From the NCBI GenBank assembly GCA_963842815.1, contig CAWJHU010000001.1, positions 94,497 to 158,496 of the forward strand: 64,000 bases of DNA. Direction: 5' to 3'. Of this stretch, positions 8,028-22,956 are shown piece after piece; position 1 is the stretch's first letter; each line of letters opens with the position of its first letter. The notes beneath the pieces were generated by a model. The model did no database searches, was not told where the DNA came from, and worked only from the letters and a program-made list of their open reading frames with translations. The stretch comes from Candidatus Nomurabacteria bacterium. GTDB lineage: Bacteria; Patescibacteriota; Minisyncoccia; Phycocordibacterales; UBA9973. The translations under genes were made by a program, and so were the position numbers.

Positions 8028-9422
8028 GTGGTTGTCCCCACTTTTAATGTTTTAAAAAAAATTATGAATACTAAATTTGTAACAAAAACAAAACTTGTTT
8101 GGACAATGACCAAGCGGAAAGTTAAAGATATTCTCCCAGCTTCGTATAATCCGAAAACCATGACAGAGAATGAACGTCGAGATCTTGAAGATTCAATCAA
8201 GGAATTTGGAACTGCTGTGCCTGTGGTTTTAAATATTGGAAGTCGAAACAATTTTCTGATAAATGGCCACCAGCGTCTAATTATTTATGCTGATCTTGGC
8301 ATCGACGAAATTGACGTCATGGTTCCCAGTCGAGAATTAAGCGAAAAAGAAGAGATGACGTTAAATTTAAGATTGTCAAAAAATTTAGGTTCATGGGATG
8401 AAACAAAACTTAAAGACCTAGATATGAACCTACTTCTTGAGGTGGGTTTCGGAGACGATGAATTACAGAATCTATTCGATAACGTAGATGTGATTGATGA
8501 TGAGTTTGATGTTGGAAAAGCCATCCGAGAAACAAAGATAGCTAGAGTAAAACCAGGAGAAATTTGGGAACTGGGAGATCATAAATTACTTGTGGGAGAT
8601 TCAACTTCGCCGGAGCAAGTGCAAAAATTGATGGCCAACGAATTAGCTGATGTCATTTATTGTGATGGACCCTACAATATAGGGTTAAGCTATTCTGACG
8701 GAATTGGCACTAAAGGAAAATACGGAGGAGAATATGGCAGCCATACAAGAAGAGATGAGGCGAAAGATTTTCCAGATTTGAAATTCAAAAATATGAAAAT
8801 GTCGGACAGTAAAACGGTGCAGAAATATACCGAATTCATGGACAGCTCCATAAAAAATGCCATCAGTGTAGCTAAACCAAATTGTCATATATTTTATTGG
8901 TGCGATGAAAAATATATTTGGCTAATTCAAACATTATATGCTCAAAATAAAATTGAGAATAAGCGAGTTTGTTTGTGGATAAAAAATAATCAAAATTGTA
9001 CTCCGCAGGTAGCATTCAACAAAGCATATGAACCATGCGTTTACGGAGTTATTGGAAAACCGCATCTCAATAAAAATATCAAAAATGCTAATGAAATGTT
9101 AAATCAAGAAATTGGCAGCGGCAACCAGGTGCATGAAGAAATCATAGACATGCTAAATATTTGGCTAGAAAAAAGAGATAACGCTCAAGACTATGAGCAT
9201 CCAACCCAAAAACCGGTGACCCTAAATGAAAAGCCATTGAAAAGATGCAGTGCTCCAGGGCATATTGTGTTTTCTGGATTTGCCGGTGGTGGCAGTGATT
9301 TAATCGCCTGCGAACAACTTGGTAGAAAATGGCGAGGGGTTGAGATTGATTTGATTTTCGCTACGGTTTGTATCGACCGTTGGGAAAAATTTACCAACAA
9401 AACAGCGAAACTAATATCATGA
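8028..9422 (+). CDS. ParB-like nuclease domain fused to a DNA methyltransferase (N6-adenine/N4-cytosine, PF01555-type)
   Basis: N-terminal NPKTMTENERRDLEDSIKEFGTAVPVVLNIG...FLINGHQRL is a ParB/Srx fold; then DVIYCDGPYNIG (DPPY-like motif IV) and HPTQKPVTL. The true start may be an internal Met (around 8064 or 8106). Confidence 0.8.
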   Translation: MVVPTFNVLKKIMNTKFVTKTKLVWTMTKRKVKDILPASYNPKTMTENERRDLEDSIKEFGTAVPVVLNIGSRNNFLINGHQRLIIYADLGIDEIDVMVPSRELSEKEEMTLNLRLSKNLGSWDETKLKDLDMNLLLEVGFGDDELQNLFDNVDVIDDEFDVGKAIRETKIARVKPGEIWELGDHKLLVGDSTSPEQVQKLMANELADVIYCDGPYNIGLSYSDGIGTKGKYGGEYGSHTRRDEAKDFPDLKFKNMKMSDSKTVQKYTEFMDSSIKNAISVAKPNCHIFYWCDEKYIWLIQTLYAQNKIENKRVCLWIKNNQNCTPQVAFNKAYEPCVYGVIGKPHLNKNIKNANEMLNQEIGSGNQVHEEIIDMLNIWLEKRDNAQDYEHPTQKPVTLNEKPLKRCSAPGHIVFSGFAGGGSDLIACEQLGRKWRGVEIDLIFATVCIDRWEKFTNKTAKLIS

Positions 9423-10183
9423 ATATTCAACAAGGAGACATTTATAAATTAGGTGAACATATTATTGCTTGTGGTGACTCACTGGATGCTTCTTTCGTTA
9501 ACCAAGTGATTGGCGACAAAAAGATCAGAGCCATAATTTCTGATCCACCTTACGGAGTTGCATATGTCGAAGGCAAGAAGGCCTTCAATAAATTAGGGGT
9601 GGATAGCGACAAAGTGATCATTGGGGATCAGCTTCAATCTGACGGAGAATACGCCAAATTCAATCAAGTATGGCTTGAAGCAGTAAAACCATACCTTGAG
9701 TCATATAACGCCTGCTATATCTTTAACGGCGACATGATGTATCCTGCCCTACGGGTTGGAATGCAAGAAGCCGGATTCTACTATAGCCAAATGATTATAT
9801 GGCTTAAAAACCATGTGGTGCTGGGACGGAAAGATTATCTGCCAATGTTTGAACTCATCGCTTACGGCTGGCATGGTAGACATAAAATGGAAAGGTCTAA
9901 AGCCAAGAGTGTGATTTTTTATCCCAAACCAAATGCCTCAAAATTACACCCTACTCAAAAACCTGTCGGACTACTCCGTAAACTGATACCAAACTCCACA
10001 AAAATAAACGAATACATTTATGATCCGTTTCTTGGAAGTGGAAGTACTGCTGTTGCCTGTGAGCATCTCGGTCGAAGATGTATTGGCATCGACCTTGATC
10101 CAGAATATGTTATAACGGCAATCACTCGTCTGGAAAAACTAACTGGTAAAACAGCAGAAAAAGTATGGTCGGTGAAAGCATAG
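9419..10183 (+). CDS. DNA methyltransferase (N6A/N4C, PF01555-type), translationally coupled to the upstream fusion gene
   Basis: IISDPPYGV (DPPY) and HPTQKPVGLLRKLI motifs; ATG at 9419 overlaps the upstream TGA (ATGA). The tracked ORF starts earlier at 9368. Confidence 0.8.
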   Translation: MNIQQGDIYKLGEHIIACGDSLDASFVNQVIGDKKIRAIISDPPYGVAYVEGKKAFNKLGVDSDKVIIGDQLQSDGEYAKFNQVWLEAVKPYLESYNACYIFNGDMMYPALRVGMQEAGFYYSQMIIWLKNHVVLGRKDYLPMFELIAYGWHGRHKMERSKAKSVIFYPKPNASKLHPTQKPVGLLRKLIPNSTKINEYIYDPFLGSGSTAVACEHLGRRCIGIDLDPEYVITAITRLEKLTGKTAEKVWSVKA

Positions 10184-10554
10184 ACAATAGAAGATCAGGA
10201 GTCTATAAAAAACAGGATTTTGATTCCTATGTTCTTTGGAAATCCTTACCCTCGGTGTTAAGAGGCCAACCAAGACAAATGCTTGAAAAATTTGGAATCG
10301 ATGATGAGATGGCAATTAGTTTACTGGAAATCAAAACCCAAGCTGAATTTGCCAAACGATTTGATATTAAGGATCCGGCCACACTAACAGACTGGAATAA
10401 AAGAATAGAAAAAGATGGATTGGTTCCCAGTATAAATGAATGGGCTCGAAAATTAACACCAAATGTCCTTCTCTCTTTGTATAAAGCTATTGCAAAAAAC
10501 GGCAAAGCATCAGAAGTAAAAGCTTGGTATCAGATTGTCGAGGGAATTATATAA
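10165..10554 (+). CDS. Hypothetical protein
   Basis: 129-aa ORF overlapping the methyltransferase stop, co-directional with it; no motif recognised. Confidence 0.4.
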   Translation: MVGESIDNRRSGVYKKQDFDSYVLWKSLPSVLRGQPRQMLEKFGIDDEMAISLLEIKTQAEFAKRFDIKDPATLTDWNKRIEKDGLVPSINEWARKLTPNVLLSLYKAIAKNGKASEVKAWYQIVEGII

Positions 10555-10765
10555 AAATATGGAAAATCAAAATACAAAAATGAGTACAGAAGAAATGGCA
10601 AAACTTCTTTCTCAAACCATGAGAGATGTGGTGGCAAGAAAGATTACCCTACGTCATGCCTTGGCAGTTTCTCGTATTGCCACTTCTTTAGCCAGAGTAA
10701 TTGAAATTACAGACTTAAATAAGAGGATTGAATTTTTAGAACAAGTTTTAAAAAAGAGAAAATAA
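10535..10765 (+). CDS. Hypothetical small helical protein
   Basis: 76-aa ORF; overlapping start and stop codons with its neighbours suggest an operon. Confidence 0.35.
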   Translation: MSRELYKNMENQNTKMSTEEMAKLLSQTMRDVVARKITLRHALAVSRIATSLARVIEITDLNKRIEFLEQVLKKRK

Positions 10766-10766
10766 T

Positions 10767-11528
10767 ATGAGAAAATTTGTTAATCTATTTGAAAAAGGAA
10801 ATTTAACCCCCAGAGAACGGTATCTGATGTTGATGCAAAATAACTTCACTAAAGTAATCACTGGTGAAGAATCTTTAACTGTAGCCGATAAAGGTGCTTT
10901 AGAAAGCTGGAAACCAAAAAATAATAGAGAGGTGGATGAATGGAATAAATATGGCGAGGGTGATCTACTGATTAGTAATGCTGGTTTGGAAGTAGAAATT
11001 TTATATTTACAAGCCAAGGCAGAATATTTCAGGAAATTTTCTCTGGATATGCAATTAAGTTTCTATCCTTCTAATCAAAGAATTGAAAATATTTTAGAAG
11101 AATTAGAGATAATAAAAGTTGGAAATGTTAAAGATGACATATTAATACTAAAAACAATTTTCAAATCAATGCAGTTTATCAAGAAAATTGAAGAAAATGG
11201 CGAAACTATTTTGGACTTTACTGAGACAGCAAAAATCATTTTCAAAGAAACACGAGAAAACCTTATTGATTACTATTCTAAATTATTGGCTTTTCAAAAA
11301 ATATTTAAAAGGTTGTCAATAGTTTACGAAGTGGATATGCTTTATTTTATTAATGATCACATAAAAGATGTTACCCGTTTTATAGAAGGCAACAACGACG
11401 CCTTAAACAGGGCAGTTTTGAAGATGAAAGATAATTTACTTATAGACAAAGACAGTATCTTGCCAGATACCGAAACATTGGAAATCTGGACTAAAAAATT
11501 TACTGAGATTTTGGGCGATGAATTTTAG
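10767..11528 (+). CDS. Hypothetical protein
   Basis: 253-aa ORF; its start abuts the stop of the upstream ORF. Confidence 0.4.
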   Translation: MRKFVNLFEKGNLTPRERYLMLMQNNFTKVITGEESLTVADKGALESWKPKNNREVDEWNKYGEGDLLISNAGLEVEILYLQAKAEYFRKFSLDMQLSFYPSNQRIENILEELEIIKVGNVKDDILILKTIFKSMQFIKKIEENGETILDFTETAKIIFKETRENLIDYYSKLLAFQKIFKRLSIVYEVDMLYFINDHIKDVTRFIEGNNDALNRAVLKMKDNLLIDKDSILPDTETLEIWTKKFTEILGDEF

Positions 11529-11539
11529 GGAAAATACTT

Positions 11540-12073
11540 TTATTTAGCGTGAGAAATAAAGTTTATGTTTGCTCCCCAAAAGTGCTTGAAGTCGATACTG
11601 CATTTACTCATTTGCGGATTGTTTGTCATCATAACTTTAAATGGAGACGTCTGCCCGGGCATAATCGGATTATAGTCGATTAAAGAATCCGAAGAATTTA
11701 CAAATTCTCCGGTTTTAGTATATGCAGTGCCCAATGCTTCTACATCCTTTAATGATTGACCGCTGATATTTTTCACTTGCCCAACGATTTGGAAATAATC
11801 ATATTCTTCGTAACACCTATAACTAAGCAATTCTAGCTGTGGTTCATTATTAGCGACGGAGTTTGTTGTCGATTGAGAACTACTAGAACCCACTGGTACG
11901 TTGCTTGAACTACTATTGATCACAATAATGAGAAATACAAAAATAATAATCCCGGCCGTTATCTTTTTACCTTTTGTCCAAACATACATTTTCCCCTGGC
12001 AATGAGGACACCTAGTTGCCATTAAATCTACTTCCTTTTTACAATGCTTGCACAGTTTATTTTTTTCTTCCAT
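11540..12073 (-). CDS. Zinc-ribbon membrane protein (N-terminal CxxC...CxxC, one TM helix, extracytoplasmic C-terminus)
   Basis: CKHCKKEVDLMATRCPHCQGKMY, then the hydrophobic segment IIIFVFLIIVI, then a Ser-rich linker. Confidence 0.4.
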   Translation of the reverse strand: MEEKNKLCKHCKKEVDLMATRCPHCQGKMYVWTKGKKITAGIIIFVFLIIVINSSSSNVPVGSSSSQSTTNSVANNEPQLELLSYRCYEEYDYFQIVGQVKNISGQSLKDVEALGTAYTKTGEFVNSSDSLIDYNPIMPGQTSPFKVMMTNNPQMSKCSIDFKHFWGANINFISHAK

Positions 12074-12189
12074 AAAATTATTTTTTAATTGATAATATTC
12101 GACGACCCACCATCCTAGCTTAGATTGATTGATTTGTGTAGCGGAGTTACCAACAGGTCAAAATATCAAGCACTTTAAGTATTTTTGGG

Positions 12190-13143
12190 CTATTTGTTGT
12201 ATTCATAGCTTTGTTTAATAAGCCCCATAACTTTATCTATGTCCTCTTTTCTTTCAAGTTTTACCTCGTAGTCGCCATTACCCCAATGGCCGATTACTTT
12301 AGGTTTTGTTAGATTACGGGCCATGCCAGCTGGATTATCTAGTTCTCCACTTGGCACATTTAAGAAAATTTTCAGCAAATCGTGCAGAATAACTATGTCG
12401 CAAAAATTAGTGGTTAATTTATAGGCAATATATTTTGATTTAGGTTCTTCGATGATTGATTCATCTAAAGCTGATATCCTCTCTTTAAGGACTGCAAATA
12501 TTTCCTTAACATTAATGTTGGCAGATTTAAGGTGATCATCAATGGTATATTGTATTTTTTCCTTGAATACACTTTTTTGTTTTTCTCCTTTTCCAAAAAT
12601 TTCAGAGGTGGAAATTTTCACTTTGCGTTGGTTCTCTGATTCCACCAGCAGGATATTATTCTCATAGAGCCGGTAATGAAGAAGCTCAATATTCATAGGC
12701 AGTAAATCAGCTGTATCTAAATCGAATTTGTTATAACTTTCCGCAACACAGATTACTCGAGGTGACGCCCAATCAATCTCTATATTAATATTCGCTTTAT
12801 GTACTAATGCCTCAAAAGCATCTTTGTGATCCAACAGCCAACGTAAATATGATAGTCCTTGATTGATGACGTTCTCGTTCTGAGATAATTTATATTCAAT
12901 GATAACCGGTGAGCCGTTGTTATCAATTCCCACCGTATCCATTCTCCCACCGAAGCTAGTTGAATATTCAGTTGCTAAAAATGTAATGTTCAATATCTCG
13001 TCAAGATTTTTCTCGAAGATTTTTTGAATATCCTTTTCAAGACCAACTTTAACGATTGGGATCTTTTTTGCTTTTTCGTTTTGGGTAAAAAATAACGCCA
13101 TGTGTTTATTCCTGGCGTGAGGTTTAAACACTAAACCCCGCAC
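12190..13143 (-). CDS. NucS/DUF91-like PD-(D/E)xK nuclease-domain protein (paralog of 13916..15007)
   Basis: GRMDTVGIDNNGSPVIIEYK...NVINQGLSYLRW shows a D...ExK motif followed by a QxxxY motif, as in NucS/RecB-family nucleases. Confidence 0.5.
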   Translation of the reverse strand: MRGLVFKPHARNKHMALFFTQNEKAKKIPIVKVGLEKDIQKIFEKNLDEILNITFLATEYSTSFGGRMDTVGIDNNGSPVIIEYKLSQNENVINQGLSYLRWLLDHKDAFEALVHKANINIEIDWASPRVICVAESYNKFDLDTADLLPMNIELLHYRLYENNILLVESENQRKVKISTSEIFGKGEKQKSVFKEKIQYTIDDHLKSANINVKEIFAVLKERISALDESIIEEPKSKYIAYKLTTNFCDIVILHDLLKIFLNVPSGELDNPAGMARNLTKPKVIGHWGNGDYEVKLERKEDIDKVMGLIKQSYEYNK

Positions 13144-13273
13144 CAGCTAGGTCTTGCGACCCCATACCAGTTTCCCGATACGGCCCTTGGAAGAGTTGCT
13201 GAACGCGGGGTTCAGTATCTTCCAAGGGTCTTTGGATCATGCCGTAAACTACTTCACGGTTTAGATCACTCAT
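13121..13273 (-). CDS. Possible small ORF (50 aa) upstream of 12190..13143
   Basis: Minus-strand ATG at 13271-13273 gives MSDLNREVVYGMIQRPLEDTEPRVQQLFQGPYRETGMGSQDLAGAGFSV; it overlaps a GC-rich nested hairpin (13184-13228). It may be non-coding. Confidence 0.2.
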
Positions 13274-13375
13274 ATTTAATTTTACTCTATAAATGTATCA
13301 AAAAATGTGATATATGGCAATGATTCTTAGAATTTTTTCGTGGTATTTTAGATGTTTTTTTGTTAGAGTTAACTC

Positions 13376-13897
13376 ATGATTCTTCCACTAGAACTAACAC
13401 CCTCAGACATAATGACTGTACCTTTACCATCTGGAAATACAGTGGACTTGCCTGTTTGTCACCCTACTTTTTCAAGCTGGTCAGAAAAATTGCCAAACTT
13501 TGATTTTGGAAAGAAACCTATCGTGAATTATAAAGGAAAAGGTGTTTTTGCTGAACTTGCTATTTTAGGATTACTTATTGACTCGGGATGGAATGGCATT
13601 TGGGTGGAAACATATGGAGGTATTCACTTTCTAAAAGATATGCCGACTAGTTGGAAATTATCACAACATAATATATCTATAACATTAGACAAAGAAACTT
13701 TACTTAAAAATATTTGGAAAACCGGAAAAACCACAGCTTGTTTTGATGTTTTCGCGTGGAAAGATAATGACATTCTTTTTTGTGAAGGAAAGCATAAAGG
13801 TAAAGATAGATTAACTAAAGCACAAACTAAATTTATTGAAGGAGCGTTGGCTTGTGGAGTACCAATACAATCTTTAGTGATTGTTGAATGGAACTAA
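13376..13897 (+). CDS. VRR-NUC-like PD-(D/E)xK nuclease (putative)
   Basis: C-terminal FDVFAWKDNDILFCEGKHKGKDRLTKAQTKFIEGALACGVPIQSLVIVEW fits the VRR-NUC pattern (D...ExK, Lys, conserved Gln, then G-hydrophobic). Confidence 0.45.
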   Translation: MILPLELTPSDIMTVPLPSGNTVDLPVCHPTFSSWSEKLPNFDFGKKPIVNYKGKGVFAELAILGLLIDSGWNGIWVETYGGIHFLKDMPTSWKLSQHNISITLDKETLLKNIWKTGKTTACFDVFAWKDNDILFCEGKHKGKDRLTKAQTKFIEGALACGVPIQSLVIVEWN

Positions 13898-13915
13898 AAA
13901 GATTTTGTTGTTCTT

Positions 13916-15007
13916 TTATTCATTTAATATATTAATTTCTGGTTCTAAAATTTCGATAACGGTTTTCATTTTATTCACTGCCCAATTTTTTAATTCATCA
14001 GTCATCTTTCCTTCATTTTTTTCTATATACATCCTAGACCAAGTTTTCCCCCAATCTTTTTCAACAATAACTTTTTCATTTGTTGCTTGTTCAATTTTTT
14101 CTTTCAATTTTTCAACTCTCCTAAGGGCTGTTTCATTAAATTGCTTGTTTCCTTTTTCAAAATGAACCTCAACACCAAAACTATTTCGTGGCCTACCGTG
14201 GAATCCCCACTCAAAATGTACTCCACTCACTACTGTTGGTATTTGGCAGTATGATTTTGTGGTTGGATTTGCATTATAGCTCGGAAGAACTGCGTTTAGT
14301 TTATTTTTAAGTTCACTGTAAAAATTAAGGTATTCTTCTTGTGAAAGAGTTTTAACATGTTCCATATTTTCTTTCTTTTCAGATTGAATTATATAGTCTT
14401 TTGCCTCTGGAAGTGGAATTAAAATTGTTGATTCAAAACCGATTGTATCATTATCTAATTCATAAGGAGTTAATTTTATACAAGTTATATCGATTCCAAA
14501 ATTTCTTAACCATAAAACAGATGCCGTAACTTCAGTTCTATATTCTTTTGATACAATAATTATTCTAGGACGATCTGACAGTTCTTCAAACTCATTATTT
14601 TCTATAAAATCAACAATTTGTTTTTTAGCTTCTTCTTCGTTAGTTATTTTCCCTTTTTTAGAAAGATAATTTTGATATTCTCTTACAACTTCACTTAAAG
14701 TTAAAGTGGAGCAATATGCTGCATATTGTATTGCCTGTAATTCAACATTTTTTCCACTATCATCACGTTTTAACTCAACCACAACCAAATTGCCGTCCTT
14801 ATCTAGTGCCAATAAGTCTAATCTTTCATTTGTCTTATCAAATTTATTATACTCAGTACTAATTATTAGCAACTCTTCACCTAAAATATCTGGATAATTT
14901 TCAACCCATTTCTCTATATCTTGTCTTTCAAGAATATTATGAGTTTTTAAGTCTGTTTCATTGTAGGTAGATATTTTTTTTGAGTTTTTATTATATGTAA
15001 ATAACAT
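13916..15007 (-). CDS. NucS/DUF91-like PD-(D/E)xK nuclease-domain protein (paralog of 12190..13143)
   Basis: ERLDLLALDKDGNLVVVELKRDDSGKNVELQAIQYAAY shows D...ELK plus QxxxY, the classic DUF91/RecB-like nuclease core. Confidence 0.5.
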   Translation of the reverse strand: MLFTYNKNSKKISTYNETDLKTHNILERQDIEKWVENYPDILGEELLIISTEYNKFDKTNERLDLLALDKDGNLVVVELKRDDSGKNVELQAIQYAAYCSTLTLSEVVREYQNYLSKKGKITNEEEAKKQIVDFIENNEFEELSDRPRIIIVSKEYRTEVTASVLWLRNFGIDITCIKLTPYELDNDTIGFESTILIPLPEAKDYIIQSEKKENMEHVKTLSQEEYLNFYSELKNKLNAVLPSYNANPTTKSYCQIPTVVSGVHFEWGFHGRPRNSFGVEVHFEKGNKQFNETALRRVEKLKEKIEQATNEKVIVEKDWGKTWSRMYIEKNEGKMTDELKNWAVNKMKTVIEILEPEINILNE

Positions 15008-15024
15008 ATTTTTATTATATCACT

Positions 15025-15156
15025 TTATAATTCTTGCCAAACCTCTAATGCTTCATCTCCCTCAAGTCCTGTTTCATCTTTAAAATCCTGAAGTTCTTCG
15101 GCTTCTTCTAGACTCAAATCATTCTCCTTGGCTGTTTCAAATGTTTCTTCGTCCAT
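15025..15156 (-). CDS. Small, highly acidic protein (43 aa) between the DUF2726 gene and the NucS-like gene
   Basis: Minus-strand ORF MDEETFETAKENDLSLEEAEELQDFKDETGLEGDEALEVWQEL, about 40% Asp/Glu; too short for the provided ORF track. Confidence 0.35.
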   Translation of the reverse strand: MDEETFETAKENDLSLEEAEELQDFKDETGLEGDEALEVWQEL

Positions 15157-15162
15157 GTTTTT

Positions 15163-15675
15163 TTATTTTAATTTCTCTAAAACAAGACGCCTTATTTCTT
15201 CTTTATTAAAATTCCCATTATTCCCAAATCGTAAAAGTGGCAAACCAGCGTCACTTAAAATACGCTCAACTTCTGCATCTCGCATACTTCTATTCTCTTG
15301 TTCGTGTGTTCTATCATCTAATTCAATCGTAAGGAGTGGTTTAATATACGCTTTATCACAAATAACAAAATCAACTGATTTTTCGTCGATATGGCGAAAT
15401 GCGCCCTTCCAATTCTGTCCTACAACCTTATTATCTAAAATAGTTGGTAAATGTATTTGAGGGAAAACATAATATTGAATTCCTACTATATCAACAAGAA
15501 TATCAAAAAATTCATGCTCTGCTCGGCTCATCAAAAAATCTTTTCGCTTATAACGGTAAAAAGGTTTATTTTCTTTGCCCGAAAGTCCTTCAGGAATAAA
15601 TACCTTAAAAGCTATGACGACAACTATTACTAAAACTATAAAAATTGTTAACATTCCCATAAAATTATTTATCAC
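15163..15675 (-). CDS. DUF2726-domain protein (PD-(D/E)xK-like, restriction-associated) with an N-terminal TM helix
   Basis: SRAEHEFFDIL...VFPQIHLPTIL...DFVICDKAYIKPLLTIELDDRTHEQ...RDAEVERILSDAGLPLLRF matches the DUF2726 signature; its start overlaps the res stop by 11 nt. Confidence 0.6.
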   Translation of the reverse strand: MINNFMGMLTIFIVLVIVVVIAFKVFIPEGLSGKENKPFYRYKRKDFLMSRAEHEFFDILVDIVGIQYYVFPQIHLPTILDNKVVGQNWKGAFRHIDEKSVDFVICDKAYIKPLLTIELDDRTHEQENRSMRDAEVERILSDAGLPLLRFGNNGNFNKEEIRRLVLEKLK

Positions 15676-16444
15676 CGAATAAACTGATCAATTCTTTAAA
15701 GTCTTTTGCTTTGTATTTCTCCCAAACCTCTTGTTTAACATATAATGCTTTATATACCGCTCTACTCTGTCGAGCATTCACATCTTCACACCACAACTGA
15801 AGTCTTTCAAATTTAATTTTATCGTCCTCTTCTTCTCTACCTTTCGTTTCAATAATATAAATTGTTTTGTCATTAACTTTAACAAAGAAATCGGGGTAAT
15901 ATGTCGCAATTAATCCTTCAGCATTTTTATACTCAATTCTTAAAGCATTGGCTTCCTTATTGATAAAATTCTTTGCAAAAGAAATAACATCGTCACAACC
16001 CTCTAAAAATTCAGCAAAAACTAATTCAAAATTACTATCACCAGCAATCCTATTAAATACTGACTTCTTAGGTATCAAGAAGGATTTATCATTGACCACA
16101 AATGGTCTTGATTCACTAATCTTTATGTAATTTTTTATTTCTGTATCTCCCTTATCTTTAATAGTCAATTCATTAATAGCTTTCTTGAAAGATTCCTTAA
16201 TTGCCCTAGTGACTTCTATCTCTGATAAATTAGTTAATATATTTAGATCATTTAAATCTACTTCCTTCTCAAAAAGATAATGCTGTATAAATTCTTTTAC
16301 TTTCCCATATAAAACATCATAACAACCGAAAAGACGAAGGTCCCGCATAATTGCTTGCGTAAAGAATCCAACCACTCTTTGATAATCTACATTGATATTT
16401 CCATCGAGTTCCGTCTTGTGATGGAATTCTTCTCCCAACAACAT
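15665..16444 (-). CDS. res: Type III restriction enzyme Res, C-terminal endonuclease part, in a different frame from the helicase part
   Basis: YYPDFFVKVNDKTIYIIETKGREEEDDK is a PD...ExK endonuclease motif. Its frame opens just after a TAA around 16492 and overlaps the end of the helicase ORF. Confidence 0.6.
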   Translation of the reverse strand: MLLGEEFHHKTELDGNINVDYQRVVGFFTQAIMRDLRLFGCYDVLYGKVKEFIQHYLFEKEVDLNDLNILTNLSEIEVTRAIKESFKKAINELTIKDKGDTEIKNYIKISESRPFVVNDKSFLIPKKSVFNRIAGDSNFELVFAEFLEGCDDVISFAKNFINKEANALRIEYKNAEGLIATYYPDFFVKVNDKTIYIIETKGREEEDDKIKFERLQLWCEDVNARQSRAVYKALYVKQEVWEKYKAKDFKELISLFGDK

Positions 16445-18356
16445 CTTTAAAGATAATCTCTCTCTTTTCTTGTTCGCTGAATGTCTTTATTTTTACTTTT
16501 TTAATTTCAAATTTAGACACATCCAAGTCTGAAAGATTTTTATACTCTCTTTGAATTCTTGCTGACATTGCTGGTATCTCAATATCGAGTTTCTCAATAT
16601 CTTTTTTAGGATTATCTTTATCAACCTCAATAACCATCGGAGTAATTGGTTTTGCTCCAGTACCCATTAATCTCTTTTCAAGCAAAACTCCTTCACCCTT
16701 AATAGATTTAACAAAATCCATAAAAGCAGGTGTTCCTATAACACTTACATATTCTTCTACACTCTCATCGCCAAAATACATTCTTCTTAAACCTCTTCCA
16801 AGTGTTTGTTCTGGAAGAATCTTTGCATCAGATGTATATGGACGAAGTCCGACAATAGTCGTCACATTTTTTACATCCCAACCCTCTTTGAGCATCAAAA
16901 CAGAAACAATAACCTTAAAAGGACTTTCCCAACTATCTATTTCATTGGCTTGCTTTCTTAATATATCTAATTCTTCTTTACTCTTTCCAGTTACACTTTC
17001 TGAAATTTCACCGCTTTTATTAGTATGAATAGTTAAAACTGCATCTTTTAAATCAGAGAAACTACCTCTAATATATTCTGCCACATCATCACAATTCTTA
17101 GTATCGTCTGTCATGATAAAAAGAATAGATTTCTTTCCCGTTGGTTTTAGATATTCATATGTTTTTCTCCATTCTTCTACTCCTAAATTTATATAATCAC
17201 GATACTTCTCACTAAACAATGAGCTTTGATTCTCTTTTAATTTTCCACAACTTGCTTCGTCTGGCACAACAGGATTTTTAACAATTCTTTGATGTATGGC
17301 TTCAACTAAAGGATAGTCTGAAATTGTTTGCACAAAAATAGATCCATCATTCTTTTTTGGAGTAGCTGTCATATCTACTTGTAAAGCAAGTTTTGTGCCT
17401 TTACCTTTTAAACGATTGTGAATATCTTGGATAGACTTAAACCAAGCCATCTTTTCATCGTGAATATGGTGAGCTTCGTCGTTGATAATAATAAGCTCAT
17501 CAATATCACGAACAATCATTCCTAAATCAACTTTAGAATCATTTGTTTTTGCAACTGGTTTCTCTCCAAGAAAATACTCACTTGTATCTTCGTCTTCTGC
17601 ACTTGAAACAGAAACATCGCTTTCATAAACTCTGTGTATGTTTGTTAAAAAGATATTACCTGTATCTGAAACACTTTTTAATTCGTCCTGTAAGTGTAAT
17701 GTTATTTGAAAATCATCATTCCAATTTTGTCCTGCATAACCATTCTCTGGCAACACAGGATCATTATGGAATATTTTTAATCCTTCAAAATCATTCTTTA
17801 TTCTTTCGAAGACAATAACGTTGGGCGTTATCAAAAGAAAGTTTTTAGCCAACTTAGAATCTTCTTCATATTTCTTATGGAAATAGGCCCAAGCGATAAC
17901 TAAACTCATTACTTTTGTTTTACCTGCACCTGTTGCCATTTTAACCACAAAACGAAGCCAGTCTTCAGTAAACATATCTGCGCTTAATACTCCAGTAGAA
18001 TTGTATCTAAGTAAATCATATTTATCTTTTACCTTAGCAACTTCATAAAGCCAAATGATAGTTTCCATGGCTTCTCTTTGCGCAAAATAATATCGGAAAT
18101 TATAAAAAGAGCCATCTTTGTTATAGATAATATGTTCTTCTTTAAACCAGTAATTCAAAAGTGCCTTGGATGTATCACTAGCATCTTCGTATTTTTTATC
18201 TCTCCATTCTTTTACTTTCTTTCTAAGGTCAGCAACAAGAGGAGGAATAAGTTTATCAAATCCTTTTTCTCGCAGATCTTCGTCAGCAGGAAACCACCTA
18301 ATGCTAGGGTCTAAGATTGCGTATGGGTCTTTTGGAAAATTTTTATGCAGTGCCAT
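16317..18356 (-). CDS. res: Type III restriction enzyme Res, helicase (SF2) part
   Basis: VVKMATGAGKTKVM (Walker A) and IIINDEAHHI (DEAH box), with helicase C-terminal domain motifs; directly downstream of mod. Confidence 0.8.
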   Translation of the reverse strand: MALHKNFPKDPYAILDPSIRWFPADEDLREKGFDKLIPPLVADLRKKVKEWRDKKYEDASDTSKALLNYWFKEEHIIYNKDGSFYNFRYYFAQREAMETIIWLYEVAKVKDKYDLLRYNSTGVLSADMFTEDWLRFVVKMATGAGKTKVMSLVIAWAYFHKKYEEDSKLAKNFLLITPNVIVFERIKNDFEGLKIFHNDPVLPENGYAGQNWNDDFQITLHLQDELKSVSDTGNIFLTNIHRVYESDVSVSSAEDEDTSEYFLGEKPVAKTNDSKVDLGMIVRDIDELIIINDEAHHIHDEKMAWFKSIQDIHNRLKGKGTKLALQVDMTATPKKNDGSIFVQTISDYPLVEAIHQRIVKNPVVPDEASCGKLKENQSSLFSEKYRDYINLGVEEWRKTYEYLKPTGKKSILFIMTDDTKNCDDVAEYIRGSFSDLKDAVLTIHTNKSGEISESVTGKSKEELDILRKQANEIDSWESPFKVIVSVLMLKEGWDVKNVTTIVGLRPYTSDAKILPEQTLGRGLRRMYFGDESVEEYVSVIGTPAFMDFVKSIKGEGVLLEKRLMGTGAKPITPMVIEVDKDNPKKDIEKLDIEIPAMSARIQREYKNLSDLDVSKFEIKKVKIKTFSEQEKREIIFKDVVGRRIPSQDGTRWKYQCRLSKSGWILYASNYAGPSSFRLL

Positions 18357-18359
18357 ATA

Positions 18360-18992
18360 TTAGTATACTTTTTGGATAAGAGAAATAAATCTATCTAATT
18401 TTTCAATTAATTCATCAACTGATTCTTTTATTACAACATTTTTTGTATATGAAGCATTGGCACTATTCAGACTTTTAGGGTGAATTGTATTTCTTAAATG
18501 ATTTATATCATCAAGGTAAGTTTTCCAACTTTGATTTCTGAAAAAACCCGCTTTATTGAATATATCTAATAAATATCCCAATCCCGTATTTTTATTGCTT
18601 AGTTTTTCAGAAGCAATGACACTACATAAATCATTTTTCTTTTTTGCGTTTGTTCTGTGTTCAAACAAATCAAAAAGCAATCCTTCATATATGGAAGCAG
18701 ACAACTGACAAAGAACAAGTTTGTGTTGCCAACCAAAAGTAAGTCCTGGTTTTAGAAATTCATATACACTTCTATGATAATCTAAACACATTCTTAGTTC
18801 AGCGAGATTATTTCTTAATTCAAAATCTTTTACAAAAGAAAACATAGGACGATAATGACTACCTAAATTTTTACTTATTTTTCTACCATCAGATAATTTC
18901 ATTTTCCAATAGCAAAATCTATCTGGTAAAGATTGCAAATTATCGTGCACTGTCATAAAACAATCTTCGGTTGAATGTTCTACACTACTCAT
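18360..18992 (-). CDS. Hypothetical 210-aa protein inserted between mod and res
   Basis: Overlaps the mod stop by 4 nt and ends 4 nt before the res start; no recognisable domain. Confidence 0.45.
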   Translation of the reverse strand: MSSVEHSTEDCFMTVHDNLQSLPDRFCYWKMKLSDGRKISKNLGSHYRPMFSFVKDFELRNNLAELRMCLDYHRSVYEFLKPGLTFGWQHKLVLCQLSASIYEGLLFDLFEHRTNAKKKNDLCSVIASEKLSNKNTGLGYLLDIFNKAGFFRNQSWKTYLDDINHLRNTIHPKSLNSANASYTKNVVIKESVDELIEKLDRFISLIQKVY

Positions 18993-21112
18993 ATTTTCAC
19001 ATCAATTACTCTAGTAGTATCATTCCCGAAAATATCGACTACTTTTACAGCCACTTTATAAGTTCCCTTAGGTAATTCTTTTGGAGTAGAAACTAATTCA
19101 AGATTTCTTTTCTTCTTGGTTCTAAATTCTTGCCATTCATTGTCAAAAACATAATCGCCAGTCCAAACTTCTTTCTCTTTGCCATCCTCAATAACTTTTA
19201 CAATTTCTTGTCTACTAGAAAAATCATAATCAACTGCCCAATAATCAATCCAATCACTCCATTTTTTAGTCAAAGTTTCTCTTTCCACAAGTTCAGTTTT
19301 CTTATCTTTACTTATCTTTATTACTTGACCATTTTCAACAACAACCTTTGAGCTTCCAGCCTTCAATCCCTCCTCTATTTCTCCAGTATTGTCTTGATTA
19401 TAGAAAACAGAGAAATCTGTTAACTCAATAGAAAGCTCTTTGTTATTTCCTTTACCTTTGATAATTGGCTTTATTTCAATAAACGCAACATCGTAGAATT
19501 TTACTTGTCCTTTTTCTACAGCTCTTTTATCAAACACTTCTCTAGGAATTATTTTGAAGGCAATATCAATTCCTTCATCTTTATATTCCTGGAAATCCAA
19601 ACCCATTTCGTAATCAAAACCAAGCACATCAATTTTGGTAATGCTCTTTTCTTTGCACTCTTTAACTATATCTTTTACTAACTCATGAGAAACAGGAGTA
19701 TTTATTGGACCAACGGCAATCAACCGATCTCTTTTCTTCCCAACAATATTTACAAATGATTCTACTGGTTCAGCTTTATAGGCAGAAATAATTAATTTAA
19801 TAAATTCTCTTTCTTTTCTTTCAGCTTGTTTAGCTTTTTGTTCTGCCCTTAAATCATTATTTAATTCAAGAAAACTTTCTCTTTCATATTTACCAACATT
19901 TAGGATTTCAAAAGCTCTAAAATTCTTACCTTCTTTTTTAAGTTCTCTTTGAACTCCAATAAGTCTCTTCCTTGAGGTATGAGTAGCAAATTTACCTAAA
20001 TCAGATCCAATCCACTTTCTATTGAGTTTTTCAGCAACAGCCATAGTTGTTCCAGAACCACAGAAAAAATCAGCAATTAAATCACCTTCGTTTGAAGATG
20101 CATTTATAATTCTCTCTAATAATTTTTCAGTTTTTTGTGTTGGATAACCTAATCTTTCCTGAGAAGTAGAAATCTGTTGAAACGACATAATATCACTCCA
20201 AACATCCCCAATTGCTTTACCTTTAGCAAGAGTTTCATCTAAATATCTTTTTTCTCCACGACCACCAAAATATCTTCTACCATCTTCATCAATTTTATCA
20301 AATCTATCTATATATTCTTTTCTATGTTCAGTTGATAATTTATTAAAAATAAAAGAATCTTTATTTTTTGAATAAAAAAGAATAGTATCGTGACCCCTTA
20401 TCCAATTTCTTGCAATACTCTTGTATCCACTTAAAACACTTATATCCCAAATTATTTCTCTTTGGAAATTATCTGCCCCAAAAAGCTCATCTAAAACTAA
20501 GCGAATATGGCTATTTACCCTGTGGTCACAATGAACATAAATACTTCCATCTTCTGCAAGTAAATCATACATCAATCTTAACCGTTCATAAATCATGGAA
20601 ATAAAACTATTTGCTCCATTACCCCAAGTATCACGAAAAGCAACCTCTTCTATTACTGAAGGTTTTTTAGTAAAACTTTCCTCTTCCTCACCATCACCAA
20701 TTTTTATATCCATAGAAAAATCTGCCCCAACATCAAAAGGTGGATCAATGTAAACAAGTTTAAGTCCTCCTTGTGCTTCTATCTCTTTTCTAAGTGGTCC
20801 GTTTTTAAGAGAAGAAAGGATAAGCTTGTTATCGCCCCAAATAAGTTTATTAGTCCAGCCAGTTACTTGTCTTCCAGACATATCAAAAAGAGAATCCTGT
20901 AATCCAATTTTATCTTCTCCTCTAGGCTCATCAATTTGTTCAATAGTTTGAAAAGGTAAAACGGTAGTCGTTACGTCATTTGTTTTACCATTCCAAACAA
21001 GCTCTACTTCTCTGTCATCCTTGAATAGCAAAAACCGATATTTATCTGGTAATGACTTACCAGCTTCTAAGAATTTTACTATATCTCGTTTTTCATTGTC
21101 AGATAGTTGCAT
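18989..21112 (-). CDS. mod: Type III R-M Mod subunit (beta-class N6-adenine DNA methyltransferase) with a C-terminal extension of about 250 aa
   Basis: KLVYIDPPFDVGADFS (motif IV, DPPF), then GYPTQKTEKLLERII and FFCGSGTTMAVAEKLNRKWIGSD (motif I); the IV-to-I order marks the beta class. Confidence 0.8.
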   Translation of the reverse strand: MQLSDNEKRDIVKFLEAGKSLPDKYRFLLFKDDREVELVWNGKTNDVTTTVLPFQTIEQIDEPRGEDKIGLQDSLFDMSGRQVTGWTNKLIWGDNKLILSSLKNGPLRKEIEAQGGLKLVYIDPPFDVGADFSMDIKIGDGEEEESFTKKPSVIEEVAFRDTWGNGANSFISMIYERLRLMYDLLAEDGSIYVHCDHRVNSHIRLVLDELFGADNFQREIIWDISVLSGYKSIARNWIRGHDTILFYSKNKDSFIFNKLSTEHRKEYIDRFDKIDEDGRRYFGGRGEKRYLDETLAKGKAIGDVWSDIMSFQQISTSQERLGYPTQKTEKLLERIINASSNEGDLIADFFCGSGTTMAVAEKLNRKWIGSDLGKFATHTSRKRLIGVQRELKKEGKNFRAFEILNVGKYERESFLELNNDLRAEQKAKQAERKEREFIKLIISAYKAEPVESFVNIVGKKRDRLIAVGPINTPVSHELVKDIVKECKEKSITKIDVLGFDYEMGLDFQEYKDEGIDIAFKIIPREVFDKRAVEKGQVKFYDVAFIEIKPIIKGKGNNKELSIELTDFSVFYNQDNTGEIEEGLKAGSSKVVVENGQVIKISKDKKTELVERETLTKKWSDWIDYWAVDYDFSSRQEIVKVIEDGKEKEVWTGDYVFDNEWQEFRTKKKRNLELVSTPKELPKGTYKVAVKVVDIFGNDTTRVIDVKI

Positions 21113-21636: not shown

Positions 21637-22956
21637 ATGAATACATCACAAATGCCAGTTGGAGCTATGGCGAGAGAAATACAAGCCCCAGTAAAGGTGA
21701 AATATTGCCTTTATGCTAGAAAATCTACGGAAAGTGAGGAGGCTCAAATACTTTCCATAGATAGCCAGATTAAAGAAATGTTACAGATGGCGGAACGCGA
21801 TCACCTTGAGGTAATAGAAATAAAAAAAGAATCACACTCGGCGAAGGAAGCCGGACAGCGGCCAGTTTTTAATGAAATTGTTGATGAGATCAAACAAAAG
21901 AAATTCAATGGAATCCTAACATGGAACGCAGATCGTATTTCCAGAAACGCTGGAGATCTTGGAAGAATTGTAGACTTGATGGACGCAGGAATATTACACG
22001 AGATACGTACCTTTGGGCAGAAATTTTCAAACAGTCCGAATGAGAAATTTCTGCTGATGATTTTAGGGTCACAAGCTAAATTAGAGAATGATAACAAAGT
22101 AGTAAATGTTAAAAGAGGACTCCGAGCAAGATGTGAAATGGGTCTCTGGCCATGCACTGCCCCGACTGGATATCTCAGCAGTAAAAACACCGACAAACGA
22201 TGTCATGTTGAAATTGACCCACATCGGGCGCCGATTATCAAAAAAATGTTTGAGAAAGTGGCATATGAAAAATGTAGCGGGCGAAGATTGCACGCATGGT
22301 TAAAAGATGAAATGAAATTTAAGACTAGGAACGGAAAAATTTTCAGCATCAGCAATATTTACATAACTCTCAGAAATACTTTCTACTACGGCAGTTTTGA
22401 ATATCCAAAGGGTGGCGGGCAATGGTACACCGGCAAGCATACGCCAATAATTTCTAAAGAATTATTTGATAAGGTACAAGAACAAATGATGGAGTACACA
22501 AGGAATAGTGAACACAAAGAATTTGCCTTTACTAAATTAATGACCTGCGGACTGTGTGGATCGGGCATAACGGCTGATGAGAAATTCAAAAAACAAAACA
22601 ATGGAAATGTGCATCGGTATGTTTACTACGGATGTTGCAGATTCCAGGACAAAAATTGTAAATCGGGTTACATGCGAGAAGAAGATTTGATTGAGCAACT
22701 TGCAGGACTGATGGATGAAATTGACCTTGATGAGATCGGGATGAAGCAGAAGATTAAAGACGAAATTGAGCGACATAAGAGATTCAATATAGGCATACTC
22801 GGACTAAAAGAAGCAACCGTCAAAGTTGCAGATGTTGATATACGAAATTATGCTAAACATGTTCTGCGAGGTGGTAGCCTGGAAGAGAAACGAGAATTGC
22901 TGACTTGTTTAAGAAGTAAAGTGGTTATGAATAATAAAGAAGTAAGAATTAGTTAA
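21637..22956 (+). CDS. Large serine recombinase (resolvase/invertase catalytic domain, recombinase domain and zinc ribbon)
   Basis: YCLYARKSTESEEAQILSIDSQ carries the catalytic Ser; also LTWNADRISRN and C-terminal CGLCGSGITADEKF...CCRFQDKNCKSGYMREEDLIEQ (zinc ribbon plus coiled coil). Confidence 0.85.
   Translation: MNTSQMPVGAMAREIQAPVKVKYCLYARKSTESEEAQILSIDSQIKEMLQMAERDHLEVIEIKKESHSAKEAGQRPVFNEIVDEIKQKKFNGILTWNADRISRNAGDLGRIVDLMDAGILHEIRTFGQKFSNSPNEKFLLMILGSQAKLENDNKVVNVKRGLRARCEMGLWPCTAPTGYLSSKNTDKRCHVEIDPHRAPIIKKMFEKVAYEKCSGRRLHAWLKDEMKFKTRNGKIFSISNIYITLRNTFYYGSFEYPKGGGQWYTGKHTPIISKELFDKVQEQMMEYTRNSEHKEFAFTKLMTCGLCGSGITADEKFKKQNNGNVHRYVYYGCCRFQDKNCKSGYMREEDLIEQLAGLMDEIDLDEIGMKQKIKDEIERHKRFNIGILGLKEATVKVADVDIRNYAKHVLRGGSLEEKRELLTCLRSKVVMNNKEVRIS

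What the first reader, a model, noticed from the sequence alone, without database searches (positions are those of the whole stretch)
12190..15675. Cluster of four nuclease-like proteins: two paralogous NucS/DUF91-like, one VRR-NUC-like and one DUF2726, plus small ORFs
12190..13143 and 13916..15007 both carry D...ExK plus QxxxY cores but differ otherwise (317 and 363 aa); they flank the oppositely oriented VRR-NUC-like gene 13376..13897. Together with DUF2726 and the acidic micro-protein this is a dense array of PD-(D/E)xK-fold effectors without obvious sensors. That pattern is typical of uncharacterised defense islands, or it could be a toxin/immunity arrangement.
Basis: partly seen in the sequence, partly recalled or inferred. 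Interest (0 to 1): 0.65.

Follow-up and report, generated by a model that had tools for sequence, protein, structure and literature searches.

The report
Defence-gene cargo slot on a mobile element
Four unrelated DNA-cutting enzymes sit side by side because this stretch is the variable anti-virus "cargo bay" of a mobile element in a tiny uncultured bacterium, not because they form one machine; an orphan structured RNA (LOOT) also turns out to sit in front of such cargo genes.

Summary
All ORFs exist as stated and four carry PD-(D/E)xK nuclease cores. They are four different families, not a system.

- **13916-15007:** PADLOC PDC-S11. This family was recently shown experimentally (Madara, MdgA) to be a modification-dependent, Type IV-like restriction nuclease.
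- **12190-13143 (true start 13101):** PDC-S18, an untested defence candidate.
- **13376-13897:** a CPR-restricted family with a FAN1/VRR-NUC-like fold.
- **15163-15675:** a membrane-anchored DUF2726 protein.

The two "NucS-like" proteins share only the N-terminal nuclease module. Their C-terminal domains differ and are the likely sensors.

None of the other three families co-occurs with PDC-S18 beyond one of 80 loci. The genes lie in a variable slot of a serine-recombinase/ParB-methylase integrative element, directly next to a Type III-like R-M operon. That operon's res gene is frameshifted here. Related elements have the slot empty or filled with other defence genes.

One unexpected find is a LOOT RNA (Rfam RF03000) at 13149-13267, just upstream of PDC-S18. 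Across about 120 metagenomic loci, LOOT precedes highly variable cargo genes.

Verdict: an ordinary defence island in an unusual host, with a noteworthy RNA.

The parts
12190..13101 (-). PDC-S18 candidate defence nuclease (303 aa from M15; the mechanical ORF runs to 13143). It has an N-terminal NucS-like PD-(D/E)xK domain, a disordered linker and a C-terminal DUF5655 domain.
13110..13148 (-). Conserved GC-rich hairpin between LOOT and the PDC-S18 start codon. It is a 3' extension of the LOOT element that the Rfam model does not cover.
   Evidence: RNAfold gives -20.2 kcal/mol. The 5' arm AGCUGG(C/U)GCGGGG is conserved in 94 non-redundant LOOT loci and the 3' arm covaries with it. The ATG follows at a median of 14 nt.
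13149..13267 (-). LOOT RNA (Rfam RF03000), on the same strand as PDC-S18 and 47 nt upstream of its ATG. It overlaps the spurious 49-aa ORF 13124-13273.
   Evidence: cmscan gives 84.3 bits against a gathering score of 46.4. In 13 copies, 27 of 39 pairs show changes on both sides and 98% of cells are paired.
13376..13897 (+). VRR-NUC/FAN1-like PD-(D/E)xK nuclease (173 aa) from an uncharacterised family seen only in Patescibacteria. It is divergent from LOOT and convergent with PDC-S11.
13916..15007 (-). PDC-S11 (Madara/MdgA-type) modification-dependent restriction nuclease, with a NucS-like nuclease domain (D64, E78, K80) and a C-terminal DUF4268 domain.
   Evidence: PADLOC PDC-S11 at 4.4e-95 over residues 2-361. 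Pfam DUF4268 scores 31.6 bits against a cut-off of 27. Catalytic residues are invariant. Experimental work on family members is in bioRxiv 10.64898/2026.09.05.749240 and 10.1101/2025.02.28.640651.
15025..15156 (-). Conserved 43-aa, very acidic micro-protein (19 D/E residues, 2 K).
   Evidence: 114 homolog clusters, 70-95% identical, all about 43 aa and from Patescibacteria. Contexts vary: next to an 84-aa GIY-YIG gene, a 143-aa PDDEXK_1 gene, or a ParB-MTase/FtsK-gamma pair.
15163..15675 (-). Membrane-anchored DUF2726 (REase-fold) protein. The probable start is the ATG at 15660 (165 aa).
   Evidence: Pfam DUF2726 at 2.3e-27 and DUF559 at 1e-4. An N-terminal hydrophobic helix is visible in the sequence. 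The gene is called as 165 aa in L005. Homologs sit next to a serine recombinase (L202) or directly after LOOT (L161, L213).
15665..18356 (-). Type III-like restriction subunit (BPTD_3080 family: helicase plus C-terminal endonuclease). In the window it is split by a 1-bp insertion at 16437.
   Evidence: Pfam ResIII and RE_endonuc. NCBIfam restr_BPTD_3080 matches both pieces. The gene is an intact 896-aa ORF in the 99.85%-identical contig L005.
18360..18992 (-). 210-aa protein of unknown function between mod and res.
   Evidence: No hit in Pfam, PADLOC, NCBIfam or PHROGs.
18989..21112 (-). Type III DNA methyltransferase (Mod).
   Evidence: PADLOC MTase_III at 2.5e-113. Pfam N6_N4_Mtase at 1e-43.
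21637..22956 (+). Large serine recombinase, the integrase of the element.
   Evidence: Pfam Resolvase, Recombinase and Zn_ribbon_recom. Homologs of 55-93% identity lie next to LOOT/PDC-S18 in many loci.
8028..10183 (+). ParB-N-fused DNA methylase and a second N6/N4 methylase. These are backbone genes of the element.
   Evidence: Pfam. The same genes occur with the same relative order in L016 (63% and 68% identity) and in L006/L011.

Best explanation
The four nuclease genes are independent, separately acquired cargo genes. They sit in the variable region of a roughly 17-kb integrative element (about 7000-24500) in a Patescibacteria (CPR) chromosome.

**Element layout**
- The backbone is a large serine recombinase, a LOOT RNA followed by PDC-S18, and a ParB-methylase block.
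- Between the recombinase and LOOT lies a slot that is empty in some relatives.
- In this window the slot holds a Type III-like R-M operon (orf131-mod-orf210-res). DUF2726, the 43-aa gene and PDC-S11 are packed onto its 3' end with gaps of 17 nt or less.
- The slot also holds a convergent VRR-NUC-like gene.

**Likely mechanism, gene by gene**
- **PDC-S11:** reads hypermodified phage DNA with its DUF4268 domain and cuts it with the NucS-like domain. This is shown for relatives and inferred here. It would complement the R-M system, which cuts unmodified DNA.
- **PDC-S18:** has the same two-module logic, a NucS-like nuclease plus a YjbR/MotA-CTD-like DNA-binding domain. It probably also cleaves a particular form of foreign DNA (inferred).
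- **VRR-NUC-like protein:** an active-site-intact, probably structure-specific DNase (inferred).
- **DUF2726 protein:** a membrane-tethered REase-fold DNase (inferred).
For: **Family assignments:**

**Experimental precedent for PDC-S11/DUF4268 proteins**
- They work as single-gene systems.
- They restrict glucosyl-hmC T4 but not T4(C).
- The D63A and E77A mutants are dead.
- MdgA degrades T4 DNA in vitro.

**No co-occurrence**
- In 80 PDC-S18 loci with 8-kb flanks on each side, PDC-S11, the VRR-NUC-like gene and acid43 scored 0 of 80, and DUF2726 scored 1 of 80.
- VRR-NUC-like homologs sit in unrelated contexts.
- So does acid43.
- So does DUF2726.

**Backbone synteny**
- L016 has the recombinase 167 nt from LOOT-PDC-S18, then orf76, orf129, MTase2 and ParB-MTase as in the window, with nothing in the slot.
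- L006/L011 (recombinase 92.7% identical) have a Type ISP R-M plus three ORFs of unknown function in the slot.

**Chromosomal setting**
- Housekeeping genes lie on one flank and tRNA genes then housekeeping genes on the other.
- GC is lower inside the island.

**Horizontal transfer**
- PDC-S18 is 50-85% identical across CPR, DPANN archaea, Gammaproteobacteria and Poribacteria.
Against: - No activity was tested for any protein from this locus.
- PDC-S18, the VRR-NUC-like family and standalone TM-DUF2726 proteins have no experimental defence record that I could find.
- Tight co-directional packing from res through PDC-S11 would also fit functional coupling with the R-M system.
- PDC-S18 behaves like a backbone gene in at least 11 CPR loci, where it is linked to LOOT and the recombinase. 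It could therefore serve the element rather than the host.
- The element's borders and att sites were not found.
- res is frameshifted in this assembly.
Confidence: 0.72

Rival explanations
1. The genes form one multi-component system, either a toxin/immunity set or co-operating effectors. For example, the acidic 43-aa protein could be a DNA-mimic inhibitor of the flanking DUF2726 or PDC-S11 nucleases, or DUF2726-acid43-PDC-S11 could be accessory subunits of the Type III-like R-M.
For: Gaps between res, DUF2726, acid43 and PDC-S11 are 4-17 nt on one strand. In three of four contexts the 43-aa gene has a small nuclease gene beside it: DUF2726/PDC-S11 here, a GIY-YIG gene in L235 and a PDDEXK_1 gene in L241. 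Its net charge is about -17.
Against: The neighbouring nucleases belong to unrelated families. In L239 the neighbour is an FtsK-gamma protein, not a nuclease. DUF2726 homologs occur without acid43 or an R-M system. PDC-S11 relatives work as single genes. The families do not co-occur in 80 loci.
Confidence: 0.1
2. PDC-S18, and perhaps the VRR-NUC-like gene, are maintenance or competition functions of the mobile element itself rather than host defence. Possible roles are exclusion of rival elements, resolution of replication or recombination intermediates, or addiction.
For: LOOT-PDC-S18 lies right beside the serine recombinase in L012, L014, L016 and L023, and further from it in L015 and L024. 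It travels with the ParB-MTase backbone in L016. VRR-NUC and Hjc-type folds are classic junction- or flap-processing enzymes. The VRR-NUC-like homolog in L245 also lies in a SerRec/ParB-MTase element.
Against: PDC-S18 homologs are widespread outside CPR with no LOOT or recombinase nearby: 56 of 80 loci have no recombinase within 8 kb. They were catalogued as defence-island genes by PADLOC. VRR-NUC-like homologs also occur away from recombinases (L003, L004). No homolog of the VRR-NUC-like protein was found in viral contigs.
Confidence: 0.13
3. The genes are housekeeping DNA-repair nucleases: NucS/EndoMS mismatch repair and FAN1-like crosslink repair.
For: Weak NucS matches (NCBIfam 1e-4 and 1.5e-8; Pfam NucS_C 1.4e-3) and a FAN1-like fold.
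Against: Scores of 21.5 and 34 bits fall far below the equivalog cut-off of 216. The nuclease domain is N-terminal, with no NucS N-terminal domain. The C-terminal domains are DUF5655 and DUF4268. The context is mobile and the distribution is patchy and horizontally transferred.
Confidence: 0.03

Closest known systems
Madara (PADLOC PDC-S11) and MdgA/MdgB: single-protein modification-dependent (Type IV-like) restriction nucleases
   Same: The 363-aa protein matches the PDC-S11 HMM end to end (4.4e-95). It has the N-terminal NucS-like PD-(D/E)xK domain with D64/E78/K80, at the positions of the experimentally essential D63 (Madara) and E77 (MdgA). It also has the C-terminal DUF4268 domain. Like Madara beside BREX, it sits next to a methylation-based system, here a Type III-like R-M.
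   Different: The host is a CPR bacterium and the gene is packed onto the 3' end of an R-M operon. Substrate specificity is unknown. I could not align it directly to the published Madara or MdgA sequences.
PADLOC PDC-S18 (DUF5655 proteins, COG 'predicted transport protein')
   Same: Full-length HMM match (2.6e-93) and the same two-domain layout.
   Different: PDC-S18 is only a computational candidate. Here, and in at least 11 other CPR genomes, the gene is preceded by a LOOT RNA. No LOOT was detected upstream of the non-CPR homologs in the 80 loci.
NucS/EndoMS mismatch endonuclease
   Different: There is no NucS N-terminal DNA-binding domain. Scores fall far below the family cut-offs. The partner domains and genomic context differ.
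VRR-NUC domain / FAN1 nuclease domain
   Different: The Pfam VRR_NUC model does not reach threshold. There is an extra N-terminal beta-hairpin region of about 50 aa. The family is confined to Patescibacteria and was not found in viral contigs.
Defence islands / cargo hotspots of integrative elements
   Same: Variable defence genes accumulate at one position in a conserved backbone next to the integrase.
   Different: The backbone here is a serine recombinase, a LOOT RNA and a ParB-methylase in CPR bacteria. I found no paper describing this element type. My searches targeted the gene families and LOOT, not the element type as such.
LOOT RNA motif (Rfam RF03000; Weinberg et al. 2017, metagenomic orphan sRNA)
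   Same: Full-length match at 84 bits with strong covariation.
   Different: Rfam classes it as a free-standing sRNA gene. Here it lies 47-60 nt upstream of protein genes on the same strand, and it has an extra conserved 3' hairpin.

Membership tests
PDC-S11 / Madara / MdgA | Full-length match to the family profile | tested here: met
   PADLOC PDLC04913 at E 4.4e-95, covering residues 2-361 of 363.
PDC-S11 / Madara / MdgA | N-terminal NucS-like PD-(D/E)xK domain with catalytic D...ExK | tested here: met
   D64, E78 and K80 are invariant in 28 homologs. NucS_C and NucS give weak matches. The positions match the essential residues D63 and E77 in the papers.
PDC-S11 / Madara / MdgA | C-terminal DUF4268 (putative modification reader) | tested here: met
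   Pfam PF14088 scores 31.6 bits against a cut-off of 27, residues 226-347.
PDC-S11 / Madara / MdgA | Restriction of modified but not unmodified phage DNA | not testable with these tools
   Requires phage challenge or an in vitro nuclease assay.
PDC-S18 | Full-length profile match and a DUF5655 C-domain | tested here: met
   PADLOC PDLC04946 at 2.6e-93. Pfam PF18899 scores 45.3 bits against a cut-off of 24.
PDC-S18 | Anti-phage activity | not testable with these tools
   No experimental paper was found.
NucS/EndoMS | Score above the equivalog or Pfam cut-off | tested here: not met
   NCBIfam NF003270 scores 21.5 and 34 bits against 216. Pfam NucS_C scores 19.1 against 24.
NucS/EndoMS | Two-domain layout with an N-terminal DNA-binding domain before the nuclease | tested here: not met
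   The nuclease core starts within the first 30 residues in both proteins. The matches are to the C-terminal half of the NucS model only.
VRR-NUC (PF08774) | Pfam model above the gathering threshold | tested here: not met
   The window protein has no hit. 6 of 41 homologs hit sub-threshold, best E 7.3e-4. A profile search against PDB sequences found nothing.
VRR-NUC (PF08774) | VRR-NUC / FAN1 nuclease fold | tested here: met
VRR-NUC (PF08774) | Catalytic D...ExK with a downstream conserved Q | tested here: met
   D124 is at least 90% conserved. E137, K139, D144 and Q150 are invariant.
DUF2726 (PF10881) | Pfam model above threshold | tested here: met
   95.6 bits against a cut-off of 24.7.
Type III R-M (BPTD_3080-type Res plus Mod) | Intact Res and Mod genes side by side | tested here: inconclusive
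   Mod is intact. Res is split by a 1-bp insertion at 16437 in the window but is an intact 896-aa ORF in the near-identical contig L005. Both Res pieces score below the NCBIfam equivalog cut-off (223 and 59 bits against 800).
LOOT RNA (RF03000) | Covariance-model score above the gathering score | tested here: met
   84.3 and 78.2 bits against 46.4. Covariation is confirmed in 13 copies.
One multi-gene defence system | Components co-occur in other genomes | tested here: not met
   Co-occurrence is 0 of 80, 0 of 80, 0 of 80 and 1 of 80.

The most novel reading that the evidence does not exclude
LOOT, with its conserved 3' hairpin, may be a cis-acting leader or cassette-boundary element of a previously undescribed family of serine-recombinase mobile elements in CPR bacteria.

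Under this reading it sits directly in front of interchangeable cargo genes and controls or marks them. The cargo includes PDC-S18, the VRR-NUC-like gene, TM-DUF2726, secreted SNase-like proteins and small membrane proteins. The arrangement would resemble an integron: a structured nucleic-acid element, a recombinase, and swappable genes that are often defence genes.

A lesser variant is that the 43-aa hyper-acidic protein is a generic DNA-mimic regulator of neighbouring nucleases.
Probability: 0.15. Interest if true: 0.75.

Novelty: new member of a known kind. Interest (0 to 1): 0.42.

Why it matters
- **Defence in CPR bacteria.** Ultra-small CPR bacteria appear to stack several single-gene nuclease defences. 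A Type IV-like enzyme sits next to a Type III-like R-M system, in one exchangeable slot of a serine-recombinase element.
- **PDC-S18.** The locus gives it a structural rationale: a NucS-like nuclease joined to a YjbR/MotA-CTD-like DNA binder.
- **A new testable candidate.** The CPR-only VRR-NUC-like family has an intact active site and can be assayed directly.
- **LOOT RNA.** The orphan LOOT motif now has a concrete genomic setting, which makes its function testable.
- **Annotation corrections.**
  - PDC-S18 homologs are often labelled 'transporter'.
  - LOOT is often called as a 49-aa protein.

Tried and rejected
- **LOOT as a dedicated RNA partner of PDC-S18 (guide, antitoxin or riboswitch).** Rejected. 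LOOT lies upstream of PDC-S18 in 11 of 80 genome loci. A reverse scan of 120 metagenomic LOOT loci found PDC-S18-like genes downstream in only 11, and dozens of unrelated genes in the rest. Homologs outside CPR showed no LOOT in the 80 loci searched.
- **The LOOT 3' hairpin as a recombinase att site marking the island border.** Not supported. There is no second copy of the motif and no flanking repeats in the window. GNRA-type loops and G-U pairs favour an RNA. The idea is not excluded.
- **Whole-length paralogy of the two NucS-like proteins.** Rejected.
- **Sequence-level link of the 173-aa protein to solved structures.** None was found. Only the fold search worked.
- **The VRR-NUC-like family in viral contigs.** None was found.
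- **Phase-variable homopolymer as the cause of the res frameshift.** Rejected. The insertion is in a TT dinucleotide.
- **The afdb50 fold library.** It was unavailable.
- **Text on LOOT function in the source paper.** The supplements were not held.


Full report
**Observation**

The ORFs named in the finding are all present.

- The 317-aa ORF (12190-13143, minus strand) has D69...E83-Y-K85...Q95xxxY99.
- The 363-aa ORF (13916-15007, minus strand) has D64...E78-L-K80...Q91xxxY95.
- These residues are invariant in alignments of 26 and 28 homologs.
- The 170-aa ORF is a clear DUF2726 protein (Pfam E 2.3e-27) with an N-terminal hydrophobic helix.
- The 43-aa acidic ORF is a real, conserved micro-protein. 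It has 114 clusters, 70-95% identical and nearly all exactly 43 aa, from Patescibacteria.

**Identity of each nuclease**

*The 363-aa protein.*
- It matches PADLOC PDC-S11 end to end (4.4e-95) and carries DUF4268 above the Pfam threshold.
- A 2026 preprint renamed E. coli PDC-S11 'Madara'. It showed that Madara restricts glucosyl-hmC T4 but not cytosine T4, and that D63A abolishes defence. The authors modelled it as a NucS-like nuclease joined to an EVE-like reader.
- A 2025 study found the DUF4268 proteins MdgA and MdgB to be modification-dependent nucleases. MdgA degrades T4 DNA in vitro and E77A is inactive.
- D64 and E78 of the window protein sit at the same positions.

*The 317-aa protein.*
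- It matches PDC-S18 (2.6e-93) and DUF5655.
- Homologs are 303 aa and start at the residue that is M15 here. The upstream 42 nt of the mechanical ORF lie inside an RNA hairpin.
- Its AF2 model (pLDDT 77) has three parts: a NucS-like nuclease domain, a disordered linker, and a C-domain.
- I found no experimental work on PDC-S18.

*The 173-aa protein.*
- It hits nothing in Pfam, PADLOC, NCBIfam or PHROGs.
- It has 115 homologs, all unannotated and from Patescibacteria.
- E60, E137-x-K139, D144 and Q150 are invariant, and D124 is at least 90% conserved.
- The AF2 model is confident (pLDDT 93).
- Six of 41 homologs give sub-threshold VRR_NUC hits.
- 'VRR-NUC-like' is therefore right at fold level but not proven at family level.

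**Are the two NucS-like genes paralogs?**

Only in their nuclease module.
- BLASTP gives 28% identity over 96 residues (E 6e-4).
- Profile-profile alignment covers about 140-175 N-terminal residues (72% probability, E 3e-5). It does not align the C-terminal domains.
- Neither protein is NucS proper. The scores are 21.5 and 34 bits against a cut-off of 216, and the NucS N-terminal domain is absent.

**Context**

- The genes lie in a low-GC island (about 0.30-0.35).
- On one side are ribosomal protein L19, a pseudouridine synthase and NDK. On the other are two tRNA genes and then pilus and RuvX genes.
- Directly abutting the finding is a Type III-like R-M operon on the same strand: orf131, Mod (MTase_III, 2.5e-113), an unknown 210-aa gene, and a BPTD_3080-type Res.
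- DUF2726, the 43-aa gene and PDC-S11 follow res with gaps of 4-17 nt.
- A large serine recombinase lies at 21637-22956. A ParB-methylase and a second methylase lie at 8028-10183.

**Do the four nucleases form a system?**

I fetched 80 genomic loci of PDC-S18 homologs, each with flanks of up to 8 kb, and searched them with all window proteins.
- PDC-S11, the VRR-NUC-like protein and the 43-aa protein were found in none.
- DUF2726 was found in one.
- VRR-NUC-like homologs sit in unrelated neighbourhoods: one defence island with Mrr, NERD and Type I R-M genes, and two non-defence settings.
- The 43-aa gene sits beside a GIY-YIG gene, a PDDEXK_1 gene or an FtsK-gamma gene.
- DUF2726 homologs sit beside a recombinase or alone.
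- The cluster is therefore a one-off juxtaposition.

**What the region is**

- The serine recombinase recurs in 24 of the 80 loci.
- In L016 the recombinase is 167 nt from LOOT-PDC-S18. The same orf76, orf129, MTase2 and ParB-MTase block follows as in the window.
- In L006/L011 (recombinase 92.7% identical) a Type ISP R-M and three ORFs of unknown function lie between the recombinase and LOOT.
- In the window that gap holds 8.3 kb: the R-M operon, DUF2726, the 43-aa gene, PDC-S11 and the VRR-NUC-like gene.
- This is a variable cargo slot in a conserved integrative-element backbone.
- PDC-S18 homologs are 50-85% identical across CPR bacteria, DPANN archaea, Gammaproteobacteria and Poribacteria. 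That spread is a strong sign of horizontal transfer.

**An unexpected RNA**

- Rfam finds a LOOT RNA (RF03000) at 13149-13267 on the minus strand (84.3 bits against a gathering score of 46.4). It lies 47 nt upstream of the PDC-S18 start and overlaps the 49-aa ORF 13124-13273. A second copy lies at 33462-33585.
- A covariance model built from four copies found LOOT in the same position in 11 of the 80 PDC-S18 loci. All 11 are from CPR.
- In 13 copies, 27 of 39 pairs change on both sides and 98% of cells pair. With the 3' partners slid by one column, only 44% pair.
- Upstream is a promoter-like sequence that recurs in the 13 LOOT copies compared by eye. A simple -10-like pattern (TGWTAY) was found in only 13 of 94 metagenomic loci.
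- Downstream is a conserved extension, AGCUGGCGYGGGG..., which forms a hairpin with a covarying 3' arm. The ATG follows at a median of 14 nt, and only 21 of 94 loci have a U-rich tail.
- I tested whether LOOT is specific to PDC-S18. All 76 of those re-searched with the covariance model matched it.
- Only 11 of these have a PDC-S18-like gene downstream.
- The rest have secreted SNase-like proteins (9), a Zn-ribbon family (5), methylases, a subtilase, TM-DUF2726 (2) and many small membrane proteins.
- LOOT also directly precedes a VRR-NUC-like homolog in L245-247.
- A divergent serine recombinase often starts 130-220 nt upstream of LOOT.
- LOOT is therefore a general feature of these elements, placed in front of interchangeable cargo. 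It is not a partner of one nuclease. Its function remains unknown.

**Side observations**

- The window differs from a 14.6-kb contig from another sample (L005, 99.85% identical) at 15 positions, all inside res.
- Fourteen are substitutions (11 synonymous, 3 not). One is a 1-bp insertion at 16437 that splits res at codon 640 of 896.

**Verdict**

- The ideas of a sensor-less effector array, a toxin/immunity set and recent paralogy are not supported.
- The locus is an ordinary kind of thing in an uncommon host.
- Three points are worth follow-up: an untested VRR-NUC-like family, a structural rationale for PDC-S18, and a genomic setting for the orphan LOOT RNA.

Noticed in passing
window 13149-13267 (-), plus hairpin 13110-13148: A LOOT RNA (Rfam RF03000, 84 bits) lies 47 nt upstream of the PDC-S18 start. 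A conserved extra 3' hairpin, not in the Rfam model, follows it. The 49-aa ORF 13124-13273 overlapping it is spurious, yet gene callers call it (L005, L009, L010).
   Followed up: yes
window 33462-33585 (+): A second LOOT copy (78 bits) with the same 3' hairpin. It lies 59 nt upstream of a T4SS-pilin-like gene (33645-34625) and just after a PemK/MazF toxin gene (32910-33299).
   Followed up: partly
L115-L234 (metagenome), L112 (IMG/VR), L245-L247: Across about 120 LOOT loci the downstream gene is highly variable: NucS-like nucleases, SNase-like secreted proteins, TM-DUF2726, the VRR-NUC-like gene, methylases and many small membrane proteins. A divergent large serine recombinase often starts 130-220 nt upstream. 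Some contigs carry two LOOTs (L149, L176/L177). The layout resembles a cassette or leader system, but its function is unknown.
   Followed up: partly
window 16139-18181, insertion at 16437: All 15 differences between the window and the 99.85%-identical contig L005 fall inside res: 11 synonymous, 3 non-synonymous, and a 1-bp insertion that frameshifts res at codon 640 of 896. The other roughly 8.6 kb are identical. This could be a real inactivation, a recombined allele or an assembly error.
   Followed up: partly
window 15025-15156 (-); L235-L244: The 43-aa hyper-acidic protein (19 D/E, 2 K) belongs to a conserved Patescibacteria micro-protein family. It often sits beside small nuclease genes of unrelated families (GIY-YIG, PDDEXK_1, DUF2726). 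It could be a DNA mimic or regulator, but this is untested.
   Followed up: partly
window 12190-13101; P0122, P0138, P0139 and others: PDC-S18/DUF5655 proteins are widely annotated as 'transporter' or 'predicted transport protein' in public records, although they have a NucS-like nuclease fold and no membrane segments.
   Followed up: partly
window 18360-18992 (-) and 21117-21512 (-): Two genes of unknown function (210 aa between mod and res; 131 aa upstream of mod) are embedded in the Type III-like R-M operon. The 210-aa protein has no hit in Pfam, PADLOC, NCBIfam or PHROGs. The 131-aa protein was checked only in Pfam, with no hit.
   Followed up: no
window 11540-12073 (-): A Zn-ribbon, TM and FxLYD-domain protein lies just downstream of PDC-S18. 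Similar Zn-ribbon membrane proteins appear directly after LOOT in other loci (L133, L112/L136), so it may be another recurrent cargo type.
   Followed up: no
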